64,000 nt of DNA from a virus, in IMG/VR virus record IMGVR_UViG_3300045003_000080, positions 55,830 through 119,829 of that record. The stretch is one strand, 5' to 3'. The notes below the pieces were generated by a model. It was not told the DNA's origin and did not search any database. It saw nothing but the letters and a program-made list of their open reading frames with translations. Within the stretch, counting starts at the first letter, position 1. The number at the start of each line of letters is the position of its first letter. Positions 24,549 through 64,000 of this stretch are shown one piece after another. A program made the position numbers and the translations under genes.

Positions 24549-24572
24549 GTGCCGGGGCCGTAGCCCCGGCAC
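24549..24572 (-). terminator. 10-bp hairpin with C(UACG)G tetraloop at the 3' end of the downstream GGY-NN array
   Basis: Minus strand reads GTGCCGGGGC-TACG-GCCCCGGCAC. Confidence 0.7.
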
Positions 24573-24576
24573 CCCT

Positions 24577-24661
24577 GCCAAGCCGTGCCCGGCCATGCCC
24601 CGCCAAGCCGCGCCGCGCTCTGCCGAGCCCAGTCCTGCCACGCTGGGGCGGGCCCCGCCAC
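24577..24661 (-). ncRNA. GGY-NN pentamer array 2 (putative VIPR-type guide RNA)
   Basis: Plus strand GCCAA GCCGT GCCCG GCCAT GCCCC GCCAA GCCGC GCCGC GCTCT GCCGA GCCCA GTCCT GCCAC...: 17 units in unbroken 5-nt register, non-coding. Confidence 0.8.
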
Positions 24662-24707
24662 GTCGCGATCTAGTGCACTCACATTGTACTAACGTGCGTG
24701 GCCATGT

Positions 24708-25256
24708 TCAGACCCTCTGATCAAAGCGTGTTTCAAGGCGTTCGAGCCGGGCCAGGATCTCGGTGCGTTCTTCGGCTGTGCGCTCGTTTTCGCCTCGGAT
24801 CGCGGTGACTGCCGTTTCGAGGTTTCGCTGGCGGACGTCCAGGCTGCGAATGGCGTCAGCCTGACGCTGGAATGCGGCAGCCACTACTTCCAGTAGGTTA
24901 CGCACTCCCGGGTCGGCCCCCGTTAGGTCGACCCGGGTAGCGACTTCGTGTCCTTCGCGAACTGCAAGGGCGGCGCGGCCTTGTTGCTTGCGGGCGAGCC
25001 GTAGGTGACCTACCGCGTCGACGACGCGGTATCCCTTGTCACGTACAACCTCTATCGCGTGGTGGTCCTGTTGTAACAACTCCCGTTTGGCCCGGCGCAT
25101 CGGCCCTTGGATCGTGGGCCGGTCCCGAATTGGGTCCACGCCCAGAGCATCCCCGAGCGCCTCGTAACTCAGCACCTCGTTGACAGGAGTCTCTCGCAGA
25201 AGGTCATAGATGATGCGCCAACGCGCCAGCTCCCCGGTGGCTTGGAACGGGGACAT
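24708..25256 (-). CDS. wHTH plus coiled-coil accessory protein coupled to the RAMP-like gene
   Basis: TGATG overlap with upstream stop; LSYEALGDALG...EVVRDKGYRVV wing motif; C-terminal heptads. Confidence 0.8.
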   Translation of the reverse strand: MSPFQATGELARWRIIYDLLRETPVNEVLSYEALGDALGVDPIRDRPTIQGPMRRAKRELLQQDHHAIEVVRDKGYRVVDAVGHLRLARKQQGRAALAVREGHEVATRVDLTGADPGVRNLLEVVAAAFQRQADAIRSLDVRQRNLETAVTAIRGENERTAEERTEILARLERLETRFDQRV

Positions 25257-25846
25257 CACCGGTACTCGATTTCCGCCACGTAGGTGCCATTCTGTGGGCG
25301 CCAGTCGCCCAGTCCCACGTAAGCGCCAGCAGTGTCGGCGATGCGCTCGATTTCGTGCTTGTCAAGGACGGACGGATCGAACTGGCCCTCGACGTCGGTC
25401 GCCCACTGCGAGAAGCGGGCGCGGCATCGAACGGTCCGTGCGCTGTTGACTTTCACCACCTTGACGAACCGGAAGTTCTCGTTTTCCCAGAGCTTTTCAG
25501 GGTCGCGCGACCCAGGGTACGAAATCGGGTTGACGACGGTGTTGATCAGAAGGCCCGCCTTGACCTTCTCGCCTAGCTTGTGTTTCTTCGCGCCGTCGTA
25601 GAGCGAGCGCCATATGTTTTCCCCCGGCAGGTATGGGCCAGCGTCCGGGTCAGTGTAGAGCGAGCCTAAGAACTCAAGGTAGGCGATCTCCTCGTAGTTT
25701 TCCTCAGTCTTCGACCGCTTTGACGTGCGGGCTTTAAGCGCCTTCGCGGCCGGGTCGAGGGGGTTGGCGAGTCGGCCATTGTGCATCAGGAGCTGGCGCG
25801 TGCCTTCAATGTGGAGCGTGAATTTCTGCGTTTGGAATGTGTGCAT
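25256..25846 (-). CDS. Stand-alone RAMP/Cas7-like protein (Vipr-like)
   Basis: 196 aa from ATG 25846. FTLHIEGTRQLLMHN first strand, PYLPGENIWRSL (RAMP PxIPGSSLKG-like), C-terminal Gly loop AGAYVGLGDWRPQNGTY. No other cas genes adjacent. Confidence 0.75.
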   Translation of the reverse strand: MHTFQTQKFTLHIEGTRQLLMHNGRLANPLDPAAKALKARTSKRSKTEENYEEIAYLEFLGSLYTDPDAGPYLPGENIWRSLYDGAKKHKLGEKVKAGLLINTVVNPISYPGSRDPEKLWENENFRFVKVVKVNSARTVRCRARFSQWATDVEGQFDPSVLDKHEIERIADTAGAYVGLGDWRPQNGTYVAEIEYR

Positions 25847-25874
25847 GGGTGAGCCATTCGTCGGGATTAGTGTT

Positions 25875-25979
25875 GCCCCGCCTTGCCAAGCCACGCTAAG
25901 CCGGACCTTGTTCTGCCAAGCCGAGCCTAGCCGTGCCTAACCTAGCCGGGCCGGGCGTTGCCTGGCCAGGCCGCGCCAG
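25875..25979 (-). ncRNA. GGY-NN pentamer array 1 (putative VIPR-type guide RNA)
   Basis: 21 units starting every 5 nt from 25875 to 25975 on plus; 18 begin RCC, exceptions GCT, GTT, GCG. Preceded on minus by hairpin GCCCAC...GTGGGC (25985-26003). Confidence 0.85.
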
Positions 25980-26144
25980 GTGCTGCCCACCAGAGCTGTG
26001 GGCTAGAAAGACGATAGCGTGGACCGTTTGTTCATGCAAACACGTAGATAAATCATCTGATAATACAGCGCGATGTTGAGTAGAACGGCAATGCATTGTT
26101 TTGCTGGGTGGTGCGAGTGATCCACATGTGTTTACAATAAGCAC

Positions 26145-26342
26145 ATGGATACTATTGTCACGCGGCGCAGTGGCACTCCCGACGAAGCCGTCGAGGTCGC
26201 CATGTTCTCCGACGGTGTCGCTTTGCTCGACACGAAACAGGGCGGCTCGGGTGCGCTGTGGTTTAACCCCGCCACGTTCGCCCAGTTCGTCCGCGACGTT
26301 AAAGAAGGCAAATACGATCCGGTTCCGTCCGTTAATGGCTAA
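26145..26342 (+). CDS. DUF397-family protein
   Basis: SG...AVEVA...GVALLDTK...LWFNPATFAQFVRDVKEGKYD. Confidence 0.85.
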   Translation: MDTIVTRRSGTPDEAVEVAMFSDGVALLDTKQGGSGALWFNPATFAQFVRDVKEGKYDPVPSVNG

Positions 26343-26390
26343 GGCGCCGTCCCACCCCCACGGGGGTCGGGGCGGCGCCTTTTTCGTTTT
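26341..26390 (+). terminator. Intrinsic terminator
   Basis: AAGGCGCCGTCCC...GGGGCGGCGCCTT stem followed by TTTTTCGTTTT, between convergent genes. Confidence 0.8.
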
Positions 26391-26394
26391 CCCG

Positions 26395-62492: not shown

Positions 62493-62577
62493 CTTCGCGT
62501 TGCGAAGGGTACGGATTCATCACTCGTCTCTGGAACGAACCCGATGGCCACCCCGTACCCACTCCGTTCTCGCGAAG
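62493..62577 (+). ncRNA. Y-RNA-like unit 1 (no tRNA-like module)
   Basis: CTTCGCG-TTGCG...CGTTCT-CGCGAAG closing helix; inner GGGTACGG/CCGTACCC stem. Confidence 0.7.
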
Positions 62578-62589
62578 ACCCCTTTCCGC

Positions 62590-62700
62590 CCCCGAGCTGC
62601 GCAGGTACATCGCCTACTTCAAAGGTTCGATTCCTTTCACCCCCACCCATGGGGGTGTGCCCCTGGCGGGCACCGGCGACACCGACTCGTTCTCTCGGGG
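62590..62700 (+). ncRNA. Y-RNA-like unit 2 (permuted tRNA-like module)
   Basis: CCCCGAG-CTGCG...CGTTCT-CTCGGGG; AAAGG-TTCGATT-CCTTT T-arm then closed acceptor-like stem. Confidence 0.8.
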
Positions 62701-62709
62701 CCAGTAGTA

Positions 62710-62852
62710 GCCCAGCTGCGACGACGACCAGTTCATCCCTTATAGATCGATAGGTTGCACGTTCGAATCGTGCCCCCGCTACCTGGCGGGGTAGCTCAAC
62801 GGCTAGAGCAATCGAACCGGTTTAAACCTGGTCGCCACCCTGTTCTCTGGGC
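62710..62852 (+). ncRNA. Y-RNA unit 3 (YrlA-like)
   Basis: GCCCAG-CTGCG...TGTTCT-CTGGGC. Order is T-arm (GCACG-TTCGAAT-CGTGC), looped acceptor stem, D-arm (TAGCTCAACGGCTAGAGCA). Confidence 0.88.
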
Positions 62853-62869
62853 GCCCACAACTTGATATT

Positions 62870-62970
62870 CCTCCAGTTGCGTTGTTCCGGGTTCCTTCAG
62901 TTGGGAAACTGCAGCTCTTGCGGTGCGGTTCGAGTCCGCGCACACCCGGGACGCCCGTGTTCTCTGGAGG
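62870..62970 (+). ncRNA. Y-RNA-like unit 4 (T-arm only)
   Basis: CCTCCAG-TTGCG...TGTTCT-CTGGAGG; GCGG-TTCGAGT-CCGC. Confidence 0.8.
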
Positions 62971-62984
62971 GCTTGTGATGTGGC

Positions 62985-63130
62985 GCGCCAGTTGCGACGG
63001 TGTCGGCTTACTTCATTCACCCTGATTAGGTGAAGACCCGGGTTCGAATCCCGGCCCCCCACTCGTGGGGGAGTGGTGTAGCGGCCTAGCACGTCGAAGA
63101 CAACAGCTGGTGCCATGTGTTCTCTGGCGC
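62985..63130 (+). ncRNA. Y-RNA unit 5 (YrlA-like, retains an anticodon-like arm)
   Basis: GCGCCAG-TTGCG...TGTTCT-CTGGCGC; TCACC-CTGATTA-GGTGA, CCGGG-TTCGAAT-CCCGG, CCCCCAC-TC-GTGGGGG, D-arm GTGTAGCGGCCTAGCAC. Confidence 0.88.
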
Positions 63131-63166
63131 ACCCCGTCACGCCCTCCCTCCTATAAGGGGGTTGTG

Positions 63167-64000
63167 ATGGCACGTTTTAACACAGCGCAGGCGCGTCCAC
63201 GCGTCGCCGGGCCCGTGACCACCACCGGGCCGGCCACCACCCACGAGGGTGCGCCCGCATACGCGCGCGACGCGAAGAGTGACCTGTTCCTGCTGGCCGT
63301 GACGAACATGGTCGGCGAAGATACCTTCTACGAGAAGGCGGACGACCGCGACCAGCGTTACGTCGATTTGATCCGGCAGGTCGCTGTCGACGACCCGGAA
63401 TGGGTGCTGGGGTTCGTCGGCTGGTTGCGCACGGAAGCGAACATGCGCTCCGCGTCGCTGGTGCTTGCTGCTGAGGCGGTGAAGGCCCGCCTGGACGCGA
63501 AGCAGCATGTGGACTTGCACACGCAGCGTTCGTACAACCGGAAGATCATCGACGCTGCGTGTCAGCGCCCCGACGAGCCAGCCGAGCTTCTGGCTTACTG
63601 GACGGGCCGCTACGGGCGGAACCTCCCCATGCCCGTCAAGCGGGGCCTACGCGACGCGGTCGAGCGGCTGCTGAATGAAAAGGCCCTTCTAAAGTATGAC
63701 AGCGACGGTAAGGCCGTCCGCATGGGTGACCTGATCGAACTGGTCCACCCCCGTGCCAAGCGCGCCTGGCAAGACGCCCTGTACAAGACGGCCATCGACC
63801 GGCGCCACAACCGCGACAACGAGATCCCGGACATGTTGCCGGCGGTGCGTGCACGCGACGAACTGAACACGGCCCCAGTCGCAGAGCGCCACGATCTCGT
63901 GCGCCGAGTCCTCGCCGGCGATGAGGAGGCGGCCGAGAAGCTGCGCCTCGCGATGGCCGGTCAGTGGGAGTGGCCTAAGAGCTGGCTCGGGATGAAGGAG
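63167..64000 (+). CDS. rsr: Ro60/TROVE-domain RNA-binding protein (3' partial; absent from ORF track)
   Basis: Hand translation MARFNTAQ...TTHEGAPAYARDAKSDLFLLAVTNMVGEDTFYE...LRTEANMRSAS...QRPDEPAELLAYW...PMPVKRG...KYD...DLIELVHP; RBS AAGGGGG. Confidence 0.92.
   Translation, partial: MARFNTAQARPRVAGPVTTTGPATTHEGAPAYARDAKSDLFLLAVTNMVGEDTFYEKADDRDQRYVDLIRQVAVDDPEWVLGFVGWLRTEANMRSASLVLAAEAVKARLDAKQHVDLHTQRSYNRKIIDAACQRPDEPAELLAYWTGRYGRNLPMPVKRGLRDAVERLLNEKALLKYDSDGKAVRMGDLIELVHPRAKRAWQDALYKTAIDRRHNRDNEIPDMLPAVRARDELNTAPVAERHDLVRRVLAGDEEAAEKLRLAMAGQWEWPKSWLGMKE

What the first reader, a model, noticed from the sequence alone, without database searches (positions are those of the whole stretch)
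24549..64000. Three unrelated ncRNA-protein systems in one phage arm
Seen: RAMP with pentamer arrays, Nop protein with dual-spacer array, Ro60 with Y-RNA array, plus 10 tRNA-type genes, all within 40 kb. Neither guide-binding protein has a recognisable nuclease domain. Inference: heavy investment in programmable repression and RNA decoys, suggesting strong inter-phage conflict.
Basis: partly seen in the sequence, partly recalled or inferred. Interest (0 to 1): 0.75.

Follow-up and report, generated by a model that had tools for sequence, protein, structure and literature searches.

The report
Phage carrying three RNA-protein systems
One half of a 120-kb soil phage genome really does hold three unrelated RNA-plus-protein machines (a VIPR system, a TIGR-Tas system and a Ro60 protein with Y RNAs), but each belongs to a kind already described, so the interest lies in their combination and in a few unusual details.

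Summary
The window is the second half of a complete 119.8-kb, 65% G+C viral contig that encodes a serine integrase.

(1) Window 24549-25987 is a VIPR locus. It has a 196-aa Cas7-like RAMP (fold match to Csm3), a winged-helix partner, and two (GGY-NN)n arrays of 23 and 18 units on the gene strand.

(2) Window 52716-54261 is a TIGR-Tas locus. It has a nuclease-less TasA (NCBIfam TIGR_Tas_endo, 184.5 bits) behind nine stem-loop units, each with two short variable segments. Similar hairpins fill four spacers of the tRNA cluster.

(3) Window 62590-64000, continuing across the contig end, holds four tandem Y-RNA-like units. One matches Rfam YrlA below threshold. They lie upstream of a Ro60 (TROVE+vWA) gene split into two overlapping ORFs. 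The split recurs in the two nearest relatives.

Nine tRNA genes are confirmed. The tenth is a tRNA-like element without a T arm.

All three kinds are in print (2014-2026), so these are new members of known kinds. None of five comparison phages carries more than one system. No guide targets were found, so inter-phage conflict remains inference.

The parts
24549..24572 (-). G+C-rich hairpin directly 3' of the downstream vrRNA array. It is a candidate vrRNA tail and a two-way terminator shared with the convergent + strand gene 24089-24523.
   Evidence: Read from the sequence and the pentamer register. A weak sub-threshold CRISPR-DR29 match lies here (26.3 bits against 39).
24570..24659 (-). Downstream VIPR guide array: 18 five-base units GGY-NN. 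14 are canonical GGY and 4 are degenerate. It ends in ...GGCTT GGCAG.
   Evidence: This is one of only two period-5 GGC arrays in the genome.
24708..25259 (-). vap-like accessory gene, 183 aa: an N-terminal winged-helix-like domain followed by long coiled-coil helices. It overlaps vipr by 4 nt.
   Evidence: The gene is conserved downstream of vipr in 12 of 43 loci, all actinobacterial, and aligned in A3. AF2 pLDDT is 84.6. Foldseek gives only weak hits (none at E<=0.001), nearly all to winged-helix regulators. Pfam Trans_reg_C scores E 0.077. Its MakoManhole counterpart is annotated 'DNA binding protein'.
25256..25846 (-). vipr: a 196-aa stand-alone Cas7-like RAMP.
   Evidence: phrog_4652, E 2.9e-51. 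Homologues number 494 and 3,825 cluster representatives. AF2 pLDDT is 92.5. Foldseek matches Csm3/Cas7 at E 2e-5, TM about 0.5.
25873..25987 (-). Upstream VIPR guide array: 23 GGY-NN units. Units 1-15 end in GGCTT GGCAG, followed by an AACAA break and 7 more units.
   Evidence: The GGCAG-(G/A)ACAA-GG junction recurs in Gordonia phage MakoManhole.
43940..45998 (+). Cluster of nine tRNA genes: Arg x3, Val, Ile, Phe, Lys, Glu x2.
   Evidence: ARAGORN. Rfam tRNA scores 52.6-71.4 bits.
44511..44576 (+). tRNA-like cloverleaf without a T arm.
   Evidence: Sequence and fold of the spacer. It is not called by ARAGORN or by Rfam at E<=1.
44017..44061 (+). tigRNA-like stem-loop (8-bp stem, 29-nt loop) filling the spacer between two tRNA-Arg genes.
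45741..45790 (+). tigRNA-like stem-loop (9-bp stem, 32-nt loop) filling the tRNA-Lys / tRNA-Glu spacer.
45875..45916 (+). tigRNA-like stem-loop (7-bp perfect stem, longer with wobble pairs, 28-nt loop) filling the spacer between the two tRNA-Glu genes.
52716..53316 (+). TIGR stem-loop array of nine units about 60 nt apart. Stems are variable and 8-11 bp long; loops are 28-36 nt. Each loop has two variable segments of about 9-12 nt around a central (A)CACCC(R)/YCCCR motif, with a CCR box-C-like triplet at the 5' stem/loop junction. The transcribed strand is not settled.
   Evidence: Seven stems are perfect. Two are completed by G-U pairs only on the minus strand.
53341..54261 (+). tasA: a Nop-fold TIGR-associated protein without a nuclease domain. 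The ATG is at 53341; the longest start is a TTG at 53326.
   Evidence: NCBIfam NF052498 scores 184.5 bits against a cut-off of 100 and 185.3 bits in the genome scan. PDB 9MTY residues 155-294 align with residues 79-265.
62590..62700 (+). Y-RNA-like unit A. Basal helix CCCCGAG/CUCGGGG, then UGCG on the 5' strand, a T-arm-like hairpin and two further hairpins.
62710..62852 (+). Y-RNA-like unit B. Basal helix GCCCAG/CUGGGC. Its core matches Rfam YrlA over the whole model, with T arm, closed acceptor-like stem and D arm.
   Evidence: (43.5 bits, E 1.5e-6 in 40 kb).
62870..62970 (+). Y-RNA-like unit C. Basal helix CCUCCAG/CUGGAGG. It carries a small tRNA-like module with a T-arm-like hairpin.
62985..63130 (+). 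Y-RNA-like unit D. Basal helix GCGCCAG/CUGGCGC. T arm, closed acceptor-like hairpin and D-arm-like hairpin follow in YrlA order.
   Evidence: The arm assignment is by my inspection.
63167..64000 (+). Ro60 N-terminal half (ORF1, 280 aa from ATG 63167). It ends 9 nt beyond the window, at contig position 136. The C-terminal half (ORF2, 295 aa, TROVE C-part plus vWA) is contig 133-1020, outside the window. ORF2 starts in an ATGA overlap with AAGGAG 5 nt upstream.
   Evidence: An independent Logan contig of 22,749 bp spans the junction with 0 differences.

Best explanation
The non-structural half of this phage, which encodes integrases, carries three independent RNA-protein modules, each a member of a published kind.

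(1) A VIPR system. By analogy with the published mechanism, copies of the Cas7-like Vipr protein line up along a vrRNA made of GGY-NN repeats, hold each GGY, and present the NN pairs. These pairs read double-stranded DNA while skipping every third base and so block transcription. A winged-helix Vap protein assists.

(2) A stem-loop-type TIGR-TasA system. A dimer of the Nop-fold protein binds a hairpin RNA whose loop holds two short spacers, one for each DNA strand. With no nuclease, it should act as a repressor.

(3) A Ro60 ring, made here from two polypeptides, and four tandem Y RNAs with tRNA-like modules. By analogy with bacterial and Thermus-phage Ro60, the Y RNAs dock on the ring through a basal helix and may tether host PNPase or gate RNA access.

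Shown here: the genes, folds and profiles, the arrays and their conserved association with the genes, and the split. Inferred from literature: RNA expression, binding, repression and the biological targets.
For: VIPR
- Fold match to Csm3/Cas7.
- GGC-NN arrays on the gene strand lie next to homologues in 22 of 42 genome loci, plus 1 locus in TGG register, from Actinobacteria to archaea. In this genome they occur only at this locus.
- The vipr-vap pair with a 4-nt overlap and flanking arrays recurs in Gordonia phage MakoManhole, 54% identity.
- Repeat numbers of 15-18 per tract compare with the published 9-16, with one array upstream and one downstream as in the published type II layout.

TIGR-Tas
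- NCBIfam equivalog at 184.5 bits and the Nop part of TasR 9MTY.
- Nine hairpins with variable palindromic stems and two variable loop segments lie directly upstream. This fits the published stem-loop array description.

Ro60/Y
- TROVE plus VWA_2 and collinear matches to phage Ro60 9KOP.
- A YrlA match over the full model.
- Sub-threshold YrlA hits on the same strand upstream of Ro genes in Streptomyces phages Quantum (43.0 bits) and Alone3 (33.8 bits).
- Arrays of 3-5 units with a shared 5' UGCG(A)AG...GGUUACUUC lie upstream of Ro in all 4 relatives examined.
- The outer helix covaries: mean 5.16 consecutive pairs in 19 units against 3.09 +/- 0.28 for shuffled partners, with 0 of 5000 shuffles reaching the observed value.

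Split
- ATGA overlap with its own AAGGAG and the same sequence in an independent assembly.
- The two closest homologues (83% and 80% identity, 296 aa, one on an 11.8-kb contig) start at the same residue.
Against: - Pfam RAMPs and Nop profiles find nothing. PADLOC and NCBIfam do not name Vipr.
- The YrlA match is below Rfam's gathering score (43.5 against 69). Units A, C and D match no Rfam family at E<=10.
- The published Ro-binding motif GNCGAAN0-1G / CGAA is only partly present in this phage's units: UGCGCAG, UGCGACG, UGCGUUG, UGCGACG.
- In all 4 relatives checked, Ro60 is one ORF of 528-631 aa. The split could therefore be decay.
- The TIGR loops (28-36 nt) are shorter than the 36-54 nt described. 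A UG/CG box D is clear in the centre of only one unit. The strand is ambiguous: the CCR motif favours +, while G-U pairs and folding energy (-261.0 against -215.6 kcal/mol) favour -.
- No VIPR target was found.
Confidence: 0.8

Rival explanations
1. The modules are present, but one or more are decaying relics without function: Ro60 is a pseudogene broken by a frameshift, and the guide arrays no longer match anything.
For: - Ro60 is unsplit in 4 of 4 relatives checked.
- Several pentamer units are degenerate: CAC, CGC, AAC and AGC instead of GGY.
- Two stems of the TIGR array are imperfect on the + strand.
- No target was found.
Against: - ORF2 has its own AAGGAG-ATG in an ATGA overlap.
- Both halves keep high third-position G+C (0.80 and 0.88) and full collinearity with 9KOP.
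- The same split start is kept at 80-83% identity in two other sequences.
- All ORFs of the three systems are open.
- The target search was exact-match only, over 10-11 units, so it was weak.
Confidence: 0.12
2. The guide systems regulate the phage's own genes or its lysogeny switch rather than fighting other mobile elements.
For: - The phage encodes a serine recombinase and a tyrosine integrase and many regulators: GntR x2, XRE/DUF5753, GerE.
- Both guide proteins lack nucleases, so they can only repress.
Against: - No site in the phage's own genome matches the VIPR guides better than shuffled guides do. The best were 17-19 of 26-30 bases, against control maxima of 19-21.
- The VIPR paper reports no self-targeting hits at 80% or more NN match, and natural targets in satellites and prophages.
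Confidence: 0.1
3. The arrays act as DNA rather than RNA: the pentamer tracts and hairpins would be protein-binding sites, terminators or recombination sites.
For: - The winged-helix partner gene could bind DNA repeats.
- The hairpin next to the downstream array looks like a terminator.
- No RNA data exist for this phage.
Against: - The GGC phase is always on the sense strand of vipr in the 22 loci where it was found. That favours a transcribed element.
- Published small-RNA sequencing and cryo-EM show that such tracts are RNAs bound by Vipr.
- TIGR stem-loop units are published as processed RNAs.
Confidence: 0.04

Closest known systems
VIPR systems, type II (Escherichia phage SUSP1 and a Pseudomonas fulva prophage). 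Source: bioRxiv 10.64898/2026.04.26.720920, Results and some Methods passages read; companion 10.64898/2026.04.26.720927, abstract and outline only.
   Same: - A lone Cas7-like RAMP gene plus one DNA-binding accessory gene.
- vrRNA tracts of GGY-NN repeats upstream and downstream, on the gene strand.
- No nuclease.
- Phage-borne.
- The protein is homologous to proteins of 128 cultured phage records, including 77 named Escherichia phages, at about 34% identity.
   Different: - The tracts are longer than the published 9-16 repeats: 23 and 18 units, possibly 15 + 7 in the upstream one.
- The upstream tract runs to within 26 nt of the vipr start codon.
- The downstream tail is a plain hairpin; no pseudoknot was examined.
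- I could not assign the type formally, because the classification data are in supplements that are closed. I also did not confirm that SUSP1 itself is among the 128 records.
Gordonia phage MakoManhole gp78/gp77 (PQ184807.1).
   Same: - 54% identical Vipr.
- A partner annotated 'DNA binding protein' overlapping by 4 nt.
- GGY-NN tracts on both sides.
- The same GGCAG-(G/A)ACAA-GG end of tract.
   Different: - In MakoManhole the tracts are punctuated by three copies of a T-arm-like minihelix. These are absent here.
- MakoManhole has no Tas and no TROVE gene.
Stem-loop TIGR-TasA systems (Science 2025, PMC12045711, passages read; bioRxiv 10.64898/2026.09.09.750476, Results read).
   Same: - A Nop-fold Tas protein without a nuclease.
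- An array of hairpins with variable palindromic stems and two short variable segments.
- Units also scattered elsewhere in the genome.
- Phage-borne.
   Different: - Loops are short (28-36 nt).
- The central motif is (A)CACCC(R) rather than a clear box D - loop - box C.
- No CUU at the stem base.
- Four units sit exactly in tRNA spacers.
- The transcribed strand is unsettled.
Thermus phage phiLo Ro60 with Yrl1/Yrl2 (PDB 9KOP, 9L5Y; PMC12135203, passages read).
   Same: - It is the best solved match of both halves (E 2.9e-14 and 4.3e-8).
- A TROVE ring plus vWA.
- Y-RNA-like genes lie directly upstream of the Ro gene in a phage.
   Different: - Here the gene is in two ORFs.
- There are four Y units, not two.
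- The CGAA motif is degenerate (CGAC, CGCA, CGUU).
- The host is an unknown high-G+C soil organism.
YrlA RNAs of bacteria and mycobacteriophages (Rfam RF02553; Chen et al. 2014, PMC4201824, passages read).
   Same: - Encoded next to Ro60.
- The 5' and 3' ends pair.
- The tRNA-like module has T arm, closed acceptor-like stem and D arm in that order (unit B by Rfam alignment, unit D by inspection).
   Different: - The score is below Rfam's gathering threshold.
- There are four tandem copies.
- An extra conserved GGUUACUUC-like element is shared with other actinophage Ro loci.
Csm3/Cas7 backbone subunits of type III and type VII CRISPR effectors.
   Same: The same RAMP fold (Foldseek probability 1.0, TM 0.4-0.55), and a protein that is expected to polymerise along a guide RNA.
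   Different: - No CRISPR array, and no other cas gene among the 40 ORFs scanned.
- Five-base rather than six-base periodicity.
- 10-16% identity only.

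Membership tests
VIPR | Vipr protein: a stand-alone RAMP (RRM core, G-rich loop, thumb) outside any cas operon. | tested here: met
   AF2 pLDDT 92.5. There are 69 Foldseek matches at E<=0.001, and the listed rows are all Csm3/Cas7-type chains. The conserved C-terminal G-x-G-D-W-R-P-R-x-G-R loop is seen in the alignment. No other cas family was found in the ORFs scanned. Thumb and G-loop were not mapped residue by residue.
VIPR | vrRNA tracts of alternating conserved GGY and variable NN (9-16 repeats published) in the intergenic DNA flanking vipr. | tested here: met
   Tracts of 23 and 18 units on the gene strand. They are unique in the genome and recur next to homologues in 22 of 42 loci. 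The tracts are somewhat longer than published.
VIPR | Accessory vap gene with a DNA-interacting fold. | tested here: inconclusive
   A conserved partner is present in 12 of 43 loci. The model shows a winged-helix-like N-terminus plus coiled coil. Foldseek gives no hit at E<=0.001, though the top rows are winged-helix regulators.
VIPR | vrRNAs are expressed, bound by Vipr, and read DNA by the one-base-skip rule. | not testable with these tools
   No RNA data are available. The target search by the skip rule found nothing credible.
TIGR-Tas | Tas protein with the Nop-type RNA-binding domain. | tested here: met
   NF052498 equivalog at 184.5 bits against a cut-off of 100. 9MTY residues 155-294 aligned at E 1e-9. 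Pfam Nop PF01798 itself gives no hit.
TIGR-Tas | [quoted passage not shown] | tested here: inconclusive
   Nine hairpins carry two variable segments of about 9-12 nt. A box-C-like CCR at the 5' junction is seen in 12 of 13 units that I tabulated by hand. Box D (YG) is clear at the 3' junction (C|G) but clear in the centre of only 1 unit. TIGRFinder was not available.
TIGR-Tas | TasA subtype: no HNH or RuvC domain. | tested here: met
   Only 78 residues precede the Nop-like part, against 154 in TasR 9MTY. There are no Pfam nuclease hits.
Ro60 / Rsr | TROVE (HEAT-repeat ring) followed by a vWA domain. | tested here: met
   TROVE at 63.6 bits plus VWA_2 in ORF2. ORF1 aligns with 9KOP residues 20-200 and ORF2 with residues 231-485. 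ORF1 alone has no Pfam hit at E<=1.
Ro60 / Rsr | A single polypeptide of about 500-540 aa. | tested here: not met
   Two ORFs of 280 and 295 aa with an ATGA overlap. The open frame at the TROVE hit is 304 aa, against 531-636 aa in four relatives.
YrlA-type Y RNA (RF02553) | Reaches Rfam's gathering score. | tested here: not met
   43.5 bits against 69 for unit B. Units A, C and D give nothing at E<=10.
YrlA-type Y RNA (RF02553) | Encoded beside Ro60, with a basal helix from the paired 5' and 3' ends and a tRNA-like T/acceptor/D module. | tested here: met
   All four units lie within 580 nt upstream of ORF1 on its strand. Basal helices of 6-7 bp differ in sequence but stay complementary. Each unit has a GUUCGAnUC T-loop motif. 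The full module is shown by Rfam alignment for B.
YrlA-type Y RNA (RF02553) | Ro-binding motif GNCGAAN0-1G (CGAA) on the 5' strand. | tested here: inconclusive
   This phage has UGCG followed by CAG, ACG, UUG and ACG. Relatives L004, L005 and Quantum have UGCGAAG in several units.
CRISPR-Cas type III (considered) | A CRISPR repeat-spacer array and a Cas10-containing operon. | tested here: not met
   Repeat finders show no CRISPR-like array. Rfam shows only a 26.3-bit sub-threshold DR29 match on a hairpin. No cas families other than weak Cas4-like exonuclease hits. Cas10 was not searched by its own profile.
Box C/D snoRNP Nop5/Nop56/58 (considered) | Match to Pfam Nop, and partners fibrillarin and L7Ae. 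| tested here: not met
   PF01798 gives 0 hits in the genome while its controls ring. Fibrillarin and L7Ae were not searched.

The most novel reading that the evidence does not exclude
This phage may feed all its small RNAs through the host's tRNA-processing enzymes. Four tigRNA-like stem-loops sit exactly in the spacers between tRNA genes, beginning 1-4 nt after a tRNA ends. RNase P and RNase Z cuts that free the tRNAs would therefore also free ready-made TasA guides. The four Y RNAs carry tRNA-like modules of their own. That would answer the open question of how stem-loop tigRNAs, whose Tas proteins lack the processing loop, are matured. In addition, the two-gene Ro60 may be a working two-subunit ring kept by selection in a small phage lineage.
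Probability: 0.3. Interest if true: 0.7.

Novelty: new member of a known kind. Interest (0 to 1): 0.55.

Why it matters
VIPR and TIGR-Tas were described only in 2025-2026. Natural examples in high-G+C actinophages are barely explored.

A single phage with integrase genes that carries both nuclease-free DNA-targeting systems is a natural test bed. It allows one to ask whether the two systems divide labour (different targets, times or strands) or back each other up.

The tRNA-interleaved hairpins give a concrete, testable idea for stem-loop tigRNA maturation. The 2026 preprint calls this mechanism uncharacterised.

The conserved split of Ro60, and the 3-5-unit Y-RNA arrays with a shared UGCGAAG...GGUUACUUC signature in actinophages, extend what is known from the two-Y-RNA Thermus phage case. 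They could also improve the Rfam YrlA model, which currently scores these RNAs below threshold.

Tried and rejected
- Pfam scans of 40 ORF translations and genome-wide scans with Pfam RAMPs and Nop gave no support for two of the three families. I nearly rejected them before the fold and NCBIfam searches.
They are iterons inside a replication-initiator gene and unrelated to the finding.
- Megablast of 20 kb against cultured phages found only tRNA fragments.
- The search for related loci with the single Vipr protein in viral contigs found nothing.
- VIPR target search by the one-base-skip rule:
  - Exact patterns of 10 units in viral contigs gave 0 and 0 hits.
  - An 11-unit pattern in metagenome contigs gave 0 hits.
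  - A 10-unit pattern gave 2 contigs that are 93% identical to each other, so one independent hit. It is A+T-rich, and the flanking units do not match (30-31 of 46 bases). About as many hits are expected by chance, so I rejected it.
  - The phage's own genome gave nothing above shuffled-guide controls.
  - These searches were exact-match only and far weaker than the published nhmmer search at 80% or more NN match.
- TIGR spacer targets were not attempted, because the spacer borders and the strand are unsettled.
- Strand of the TIGR array: folding energies and G-U pairs favour the minus strand, while the CCR motif and co-orientation with tasA and the tRNAs favour plus. This is left open.
- Complex prediction on the two Ro halves gave no verdict (score 0.17, mark 0.34). 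It is no evidence either way.
- The look-up of sequencing runs listed no RNA holder. The two DNA holders give identical figures and may be the source sample filed twice.
- RtcB was not found in the genome, so there is no rsr-rtcBA-type operon.
- PADLOC found nothing for Vipr, Vap, TasA or the Ro halves.
- Rfam found no YrlA at E<=0.01 in L004 or L005, although both hold Y-like arrays by motif.
- A recount gives 22, plus L029 in TGG register.

Full report
**What the window is.** The window is bases 55830-119829 of a 119,829-bp viral contig whose ends repeat 127 bp, that is, a circularly closed assembly rated complete. It is 58-68% G+C in 2-kb windows. No cultured phage is near it at the DNA level. 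Just past the window end the genome encodes a large serine recombinase and a tyrosine integrase. This suggests, but does not show, that the phage is temperate. Gene calls were made by third-position G+C. Pfam on 40 translations showed an ordinary early/replication arm:
- metallophosphatase, GH26, GT2 and a DnaC/IstB-like ATPase;
- GntR, XRE and GerE regulators;
- RecT, PAPS reductase and a C5 methylase.

No RAMP, Nop or TROVE family appeared. On that basis I first gave the finding poor odds. That was wrong.

**System 1, 'RAMP with pentamer arrays' = VIPR.**
- *Arrays.* Two tracts of GCC at a strict 5-base period on the + strand are the only such tracts in the genome. They flank two overlapping minus-strand genes. 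Read on the gene strand they are GGY-NN units: 23 upstream (25987-25873) and 18 downstream (24659-24570). The downstream tract is followed by a hairpin.
- *Protein.* The first gene product (196 aa) matches only phrog_4652, 'unknown function'. It has no Pfam, NCBIfam or PADLOC hit. The family is nevertheless very large: 494 hits at 90% clustering and 3,825 representatives at 50% clustering.
- *Fold.* An AlphaFold model from 20 aligned members has pLDDT 92.5. Foldseek against the PDB returns Csm3/Cas7 subunits of type III and type VII CRISPR effectors throughout the listed rows. There are 69 matches at E<=0.001, the best at 2.3e-5, with TM 0.40-0.55.
- *Association with arrays.* In 42 loci fetched from species-representative genomes, GGC-NN tracts (at least 7 of 8 consecutive periods) lie on the gene's sense strand beside the homologue in 22 loci. 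One further locus has the tract in TGG register. The loci range from Actinobacteria and Alphaproteobacteria to Methanoperedens. My note said 24; 22 is the recount.
- *Identification.* Earlier notes of this scan pointed me to two 2026 preprints describing exactly this as VIPR. I read the Results of the first and the abstract of the second. They describe a Vipr RAMP, a vap accessory gene, vrRNAs of 9-16 YNNGG repeats with a 3' tail, recognition of DNA by the NN pairs with one skipped base, and repression rather than cleavage in type II.
- *Accessory gene.* The second gene here (183 aa) is conserved behind vipr in the 12 actinobacterial loci, including this one. It models as a winged-helix-like domain plus coiled coil (pLDDT 84.6). 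Structural matches are only weak, and are to winged-helix regulators.
- *Closest cultured example.* Gordonia phage MakoManhole gp78/gp77 has 54% identity, the same 4-nt overlap, flanking GGY-NN tracts and the same GGCAG-(G/A)ACAA-GG tract end.

**System 2, 'Nop protein with dual-spacer array' = TIGR-TasA.**
- *Protein.* ORF 53326/53341-54261 has no Pfam hit. It matches NCBIfam NF052498, 'TIGR-Tas system RNA-guided endonuclease', at 184.5 bits against a cut-off of 100 (185.3 bits in the genome scan). Residues 79-265 align with the Nop part (residues 155-294) of TasR, PDB 9MTY. Only 78 residues precede that part, so there is no room for the RuvC or HNH domain. This is the TasA form.
- *Array.* The 600 bases upstream (52716-53316) hold nine hairpins about 60 nt apart. 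Seven have perfect stems of 8-11 bp and two have imperfect stems. Loops are 28-36 nt.
- *Unit layout.* Stems differ in sequence between units. Each loop starts with a CCR triplet shared with the last stem base and ends in C before the closing G. A central (A)CACCC(R)/YCCCR motif separates two variable stretches of about 9-12 nt. I tabulated this by hand.
- *Fit to the literature.* This matches the published description of stem-loop TIGR arrays: two 8-12-nt spacers, variable palindromic stems, and box C 'CCA' 5' of each spacer (PMC12045711 passages; preprint Results). One unit (53200-53253) reads CCA-10-UG-GUUU-CCA-9-CG, the canonical layout. In the others the central box D is not evident.
- *Strand.* The strand is unsettled (against the CCR motif).
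- *Scattered units.* Similar hairpins occur elsewhere: 37553-37603, 44928-44976 and contig 16373-17108 and 28903-29012. Four of them exactly fill spacers of the tRNA cluster, beginning 1-4 nt after a tRNA.
- *Published function.* The 2026 preprint reports that TasA and dead TasR repress transcription and that maturation of stem-loop tigRNAs is unexplained. No paper in the library couples 'tigRNA' with 'RNase P'.

**System 3, 'Ro60 with Y-RNA array'.**
- *Rfam match.* Rfam at a relaxed threshold gives a YrlA match over the whole model at 62724-62838. It scores 43.5 bits against a gathering score of 69, with E 1.5e-6 for 40 kb. The T arm, closed acceptor-like stem and D arm are well aligned.
- *Four units.* The 770-nt non-coding stretch in fact holds four units (A-D). 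Each has a GUUCGAnUC T-loop motif. Each starts ...CCAG-YU-GCG (unit A has CCGAG-CU-GCG) and ends ...GUUCUCUGG (unit A ends GUUCUCUCGG). The outer helices are 6-7 bp and differ in sequence while staying complementary: CCCCGAG/CUCGGGG, GCCCAG/CUGGGC, CCUCCAG/CUGGAGG and GCGCCAG/CUGGCGC.
- *Protein, first half.* ORF1 (ATG 63167, 280 aa) runs 9 nt past the window end. It has no Pfam hit at E<=1. It aligns with residues 20-200 of PDB 9KOP at E 2.9e-14.
- *Protein, second half.* A TROVE hit of 64.9 bits lies at contig 148-345, in ORF2 (contig 133-1020, 295 aa). ORF2 also has a VWA_2 domain and aligns with 9KOP/9L5Y residues 231-485. 9KOP/9L5Y is the Ro60 of Thermus phage phiLo. That protein binds two upstream Y-like RNAs and, together with them, host PNPase (PMC12135203 passages).
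- *The split.* The two ORFs overlap as ATGA, with AAGGAG 5 nt before the ORF2 start. The break falls where full-length relatives read AAGMTWED..SLSG. An independent Logan contig of 22,749 bp runs through the junction with no difference, so the split is not an artefact of the contig end. The run may, however, be the source sample.
- *Relatives are unsplit.* Two viral contigs and Streptomyces phages Alone3 and Quantum have single ORFs of 528-631 aa.
- *Nearest homologues share the split.* The two nearest protein homologues (83% and 80% identity) are 296 aa and begin MSLETEERLSDA.VWEALIPHMGY, the same start as ORF2. One is on an 11.8-kb contig. The split form therefore seems to be maintained in a small lineage. 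Their upstream ORFs could not be inspected.
- *Y arrays in relatives.* All four relatives have 3-5 tandem units upstream of Ro. Each unit has a 5' UGCG(A)AG...GGUUACUUC signature and a unit-specific outer helix. In Quantum and Alone3 one unit each scores as YrlA below threshold (43.0 and 33.8 bits).
- *Covariation.* Over 19 units from 5 loci, the outer helix averages 5.16 consecutive pairs against 3.09 +/- 0.28 for shuffled partners. None of 5000 shuffles reaches the observed value (a cruder version is). Related sequences can inflate such a test, but the helices differ in sequence between units of one array.
- *Ro-binding motif.* UGCGAAG contains the CGAA core of the published Ro-binding motif GNCGAAN0-1G. 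In this phage the motif is degenerate.

**tRNAs.** Nine genes are called by both ARAGORN and Rfam. None lies in the first 9 kb of the contig. The tenth 'tRNA-type' element is a cloverleaf at about 44511-44576 with acceptor, D and anticodon arms but no T arm.

**Co-occurrence.**
- In cultured phages, tblastn finds Vipr homologues in 128 records (mostly Escherichia, Salmonella and Shigella phages), Tas homologues in 91 (83 Mycobacterium phages) and Ro homologues in 91 (Bacteroides, Streptomyces, Xanthomonas, Rhizobium, Gordonia and others).
- No accession is shared among the 40 rows listed for each search. The unlisted rows were not compared.
- Whole-record scans of five comparators show none with more than one of the three systems: four Ro-bearing phages and MakoManhole. 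The phage's own genome rings as positive control for all three.
- One paper in the library mentions both VIPR and TIGR-Tas, and the passage seen does not concern co-occurrence.
- 'Y RNA' + 'Ro-like' + 'phage' finds no paper.
- 'TROVE' + 'Ro60' + 'split' finds 24 papers. None of the 8 listed titles concerns a split gene.

**How it most likely works, and how sure.**
- *Identity of the three systems.* About 0.8 overall: higher for VIPR and Ro60, somewhat lower for the details of the TIGR array.
- *Mechanisms.* These are taken from the literature and are inferred for this phage. Vipr filaments on GGY-NN RNA would read DNA with a one-base skip. TasA dimers on dual-spacer hairpins would bind both DNA strands. 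A Ro ring would be docked by Y RNAs, possibly recruiting host PNPase.
- *Targets.* No guide target was found, and the phage does not target itself above chance. The claim of inter-phage conflict therefore rests on analogy with the published systems.

**Verdict.** The systems are new members of known kinds. The combination in one genome, the conserved split of Ro60, the multi-unit Y arrays of actinophages and the tRNA-interleaved hairpins are the parts worth following up.

Noticed in passing
window 40792-40942, inside ORF 40412-41239 (-), next to 39702-40415 (-): Five copies of a 23-nt repeat (GGTGGTACGGCTCCCGTACTAGT, with a palindromic GTACGG..CCGTAC core) lie inside a lambda-O-like replication initiator gene (phrog_6643/391). 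That gene is followed by a DnaC/IstB-like ATPase. This is most likely the origin of replication with its iterons.
   Followed up: partly
window 44017-44061, 45741-45790, 45875-45916, about 46000-46048; also 44928-44976 and 37553-37603 (-): Stem-loops of the same build as the TIGR units (7-10-bp stem, 28-32-nt loop, CCR start, central YCCCR) lie outside the main array. Four of them exactly fill spacers after tRNA-Arg(acg), tRNA-Lys, tRNA-Glu(ctc) and tRNA-Glu(ttc). This suggests release by tRNA-processing enzymes.
   Followed up: partly
own genome outside the window: contig 16373-17108 and 28903-29012: Further clusters of hairpins (six and two) have 9-bp stems, 30-35-nt loops and the same central CACCC/GGGTG motif. 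The first cluster is in the opposite orientation. They are probably additional TIGR sub-arrays.
   Followed up: no
window 44511-44576: A tRNA-like cloverleaf has an 8-bp acceptor stem, a D arm and an anticodon arm (loop CACGACA), but a 3-bp stub in place of the T arm. It is not called by ARAGORN or Rfam.
   Followed up: partly
L052 (Gordonia phage MakoManhole) about 1650-1690, 2980-3026, 3100-3146: Three copies of a T-arm-plus-stem minihelix (…GGTGGGGTTCGACTCCCCACC…) punctuate the GGY-NN tracts of that phage's VIPR locus. This is another case of tRNA-like elements between guide RNAs.
   Followed up: no
L053 (contig) 1786-3396 (-) and 4783-5817 (+): A large serine recombinase (Resolvase + Recombinase domains) and a tyrosine integrase lie within 5 kb downstream of the Ro60 genes. 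The Ro/Y module therefore sits beside the integration functions.
   Followed up: no
window 47346-48964: A weak RecT-like ORF (E 6.8e-4) is followed by a Cas4-like exonuclease (weak TIGR00372 and PADLOC Cas4 hits). This is an ordinary phage recombination pair and not part of a CRISPR system.
   Followed up: no
L048 (Streptomyces phage Alone3) 950-1680; L049 (Quantum) 1240-1700; L004 310-800; L005 2670-3140: Every Ro-bearing actinophage locus examined has 3-5 tandem Y-like units. They share UGCG(A)AG...GGUUACUUC at the 5' end and a locus-specific conserved 3' strand: UUUCUAG, GGUUAAC, GUGAUCUC or GUUCCCGGG. Rfam YrlA scores them below threshold or not at all.
   Followed up: partly
one search list of TROVE homologues: Several C-terminal-half-only TROVE proteins of 274-325 aa lie on long contigs (14-109 kb; for example P0287, P0303, P0321, P0379, P0386). 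They start at or near the same internal position (MTWE...). Split or internally started Ro60 genes may therefore be more common in Actinobacteria than this one lineage. Their context could not be checked.
   Followed up: no
window 26147-26343 (+) and 61509-62396 (+): A small ORF next to the VIPR locus looked to me like a DUF397-type protein. This is from recall and was not scanned. An XRE/DUF5753 regulator (E 5.5e-30) lies just upstream of the Y array. By recall, these are regulator families typical of Streptomyces-like hosts, a hint to the unknown host.
   Followed up: no
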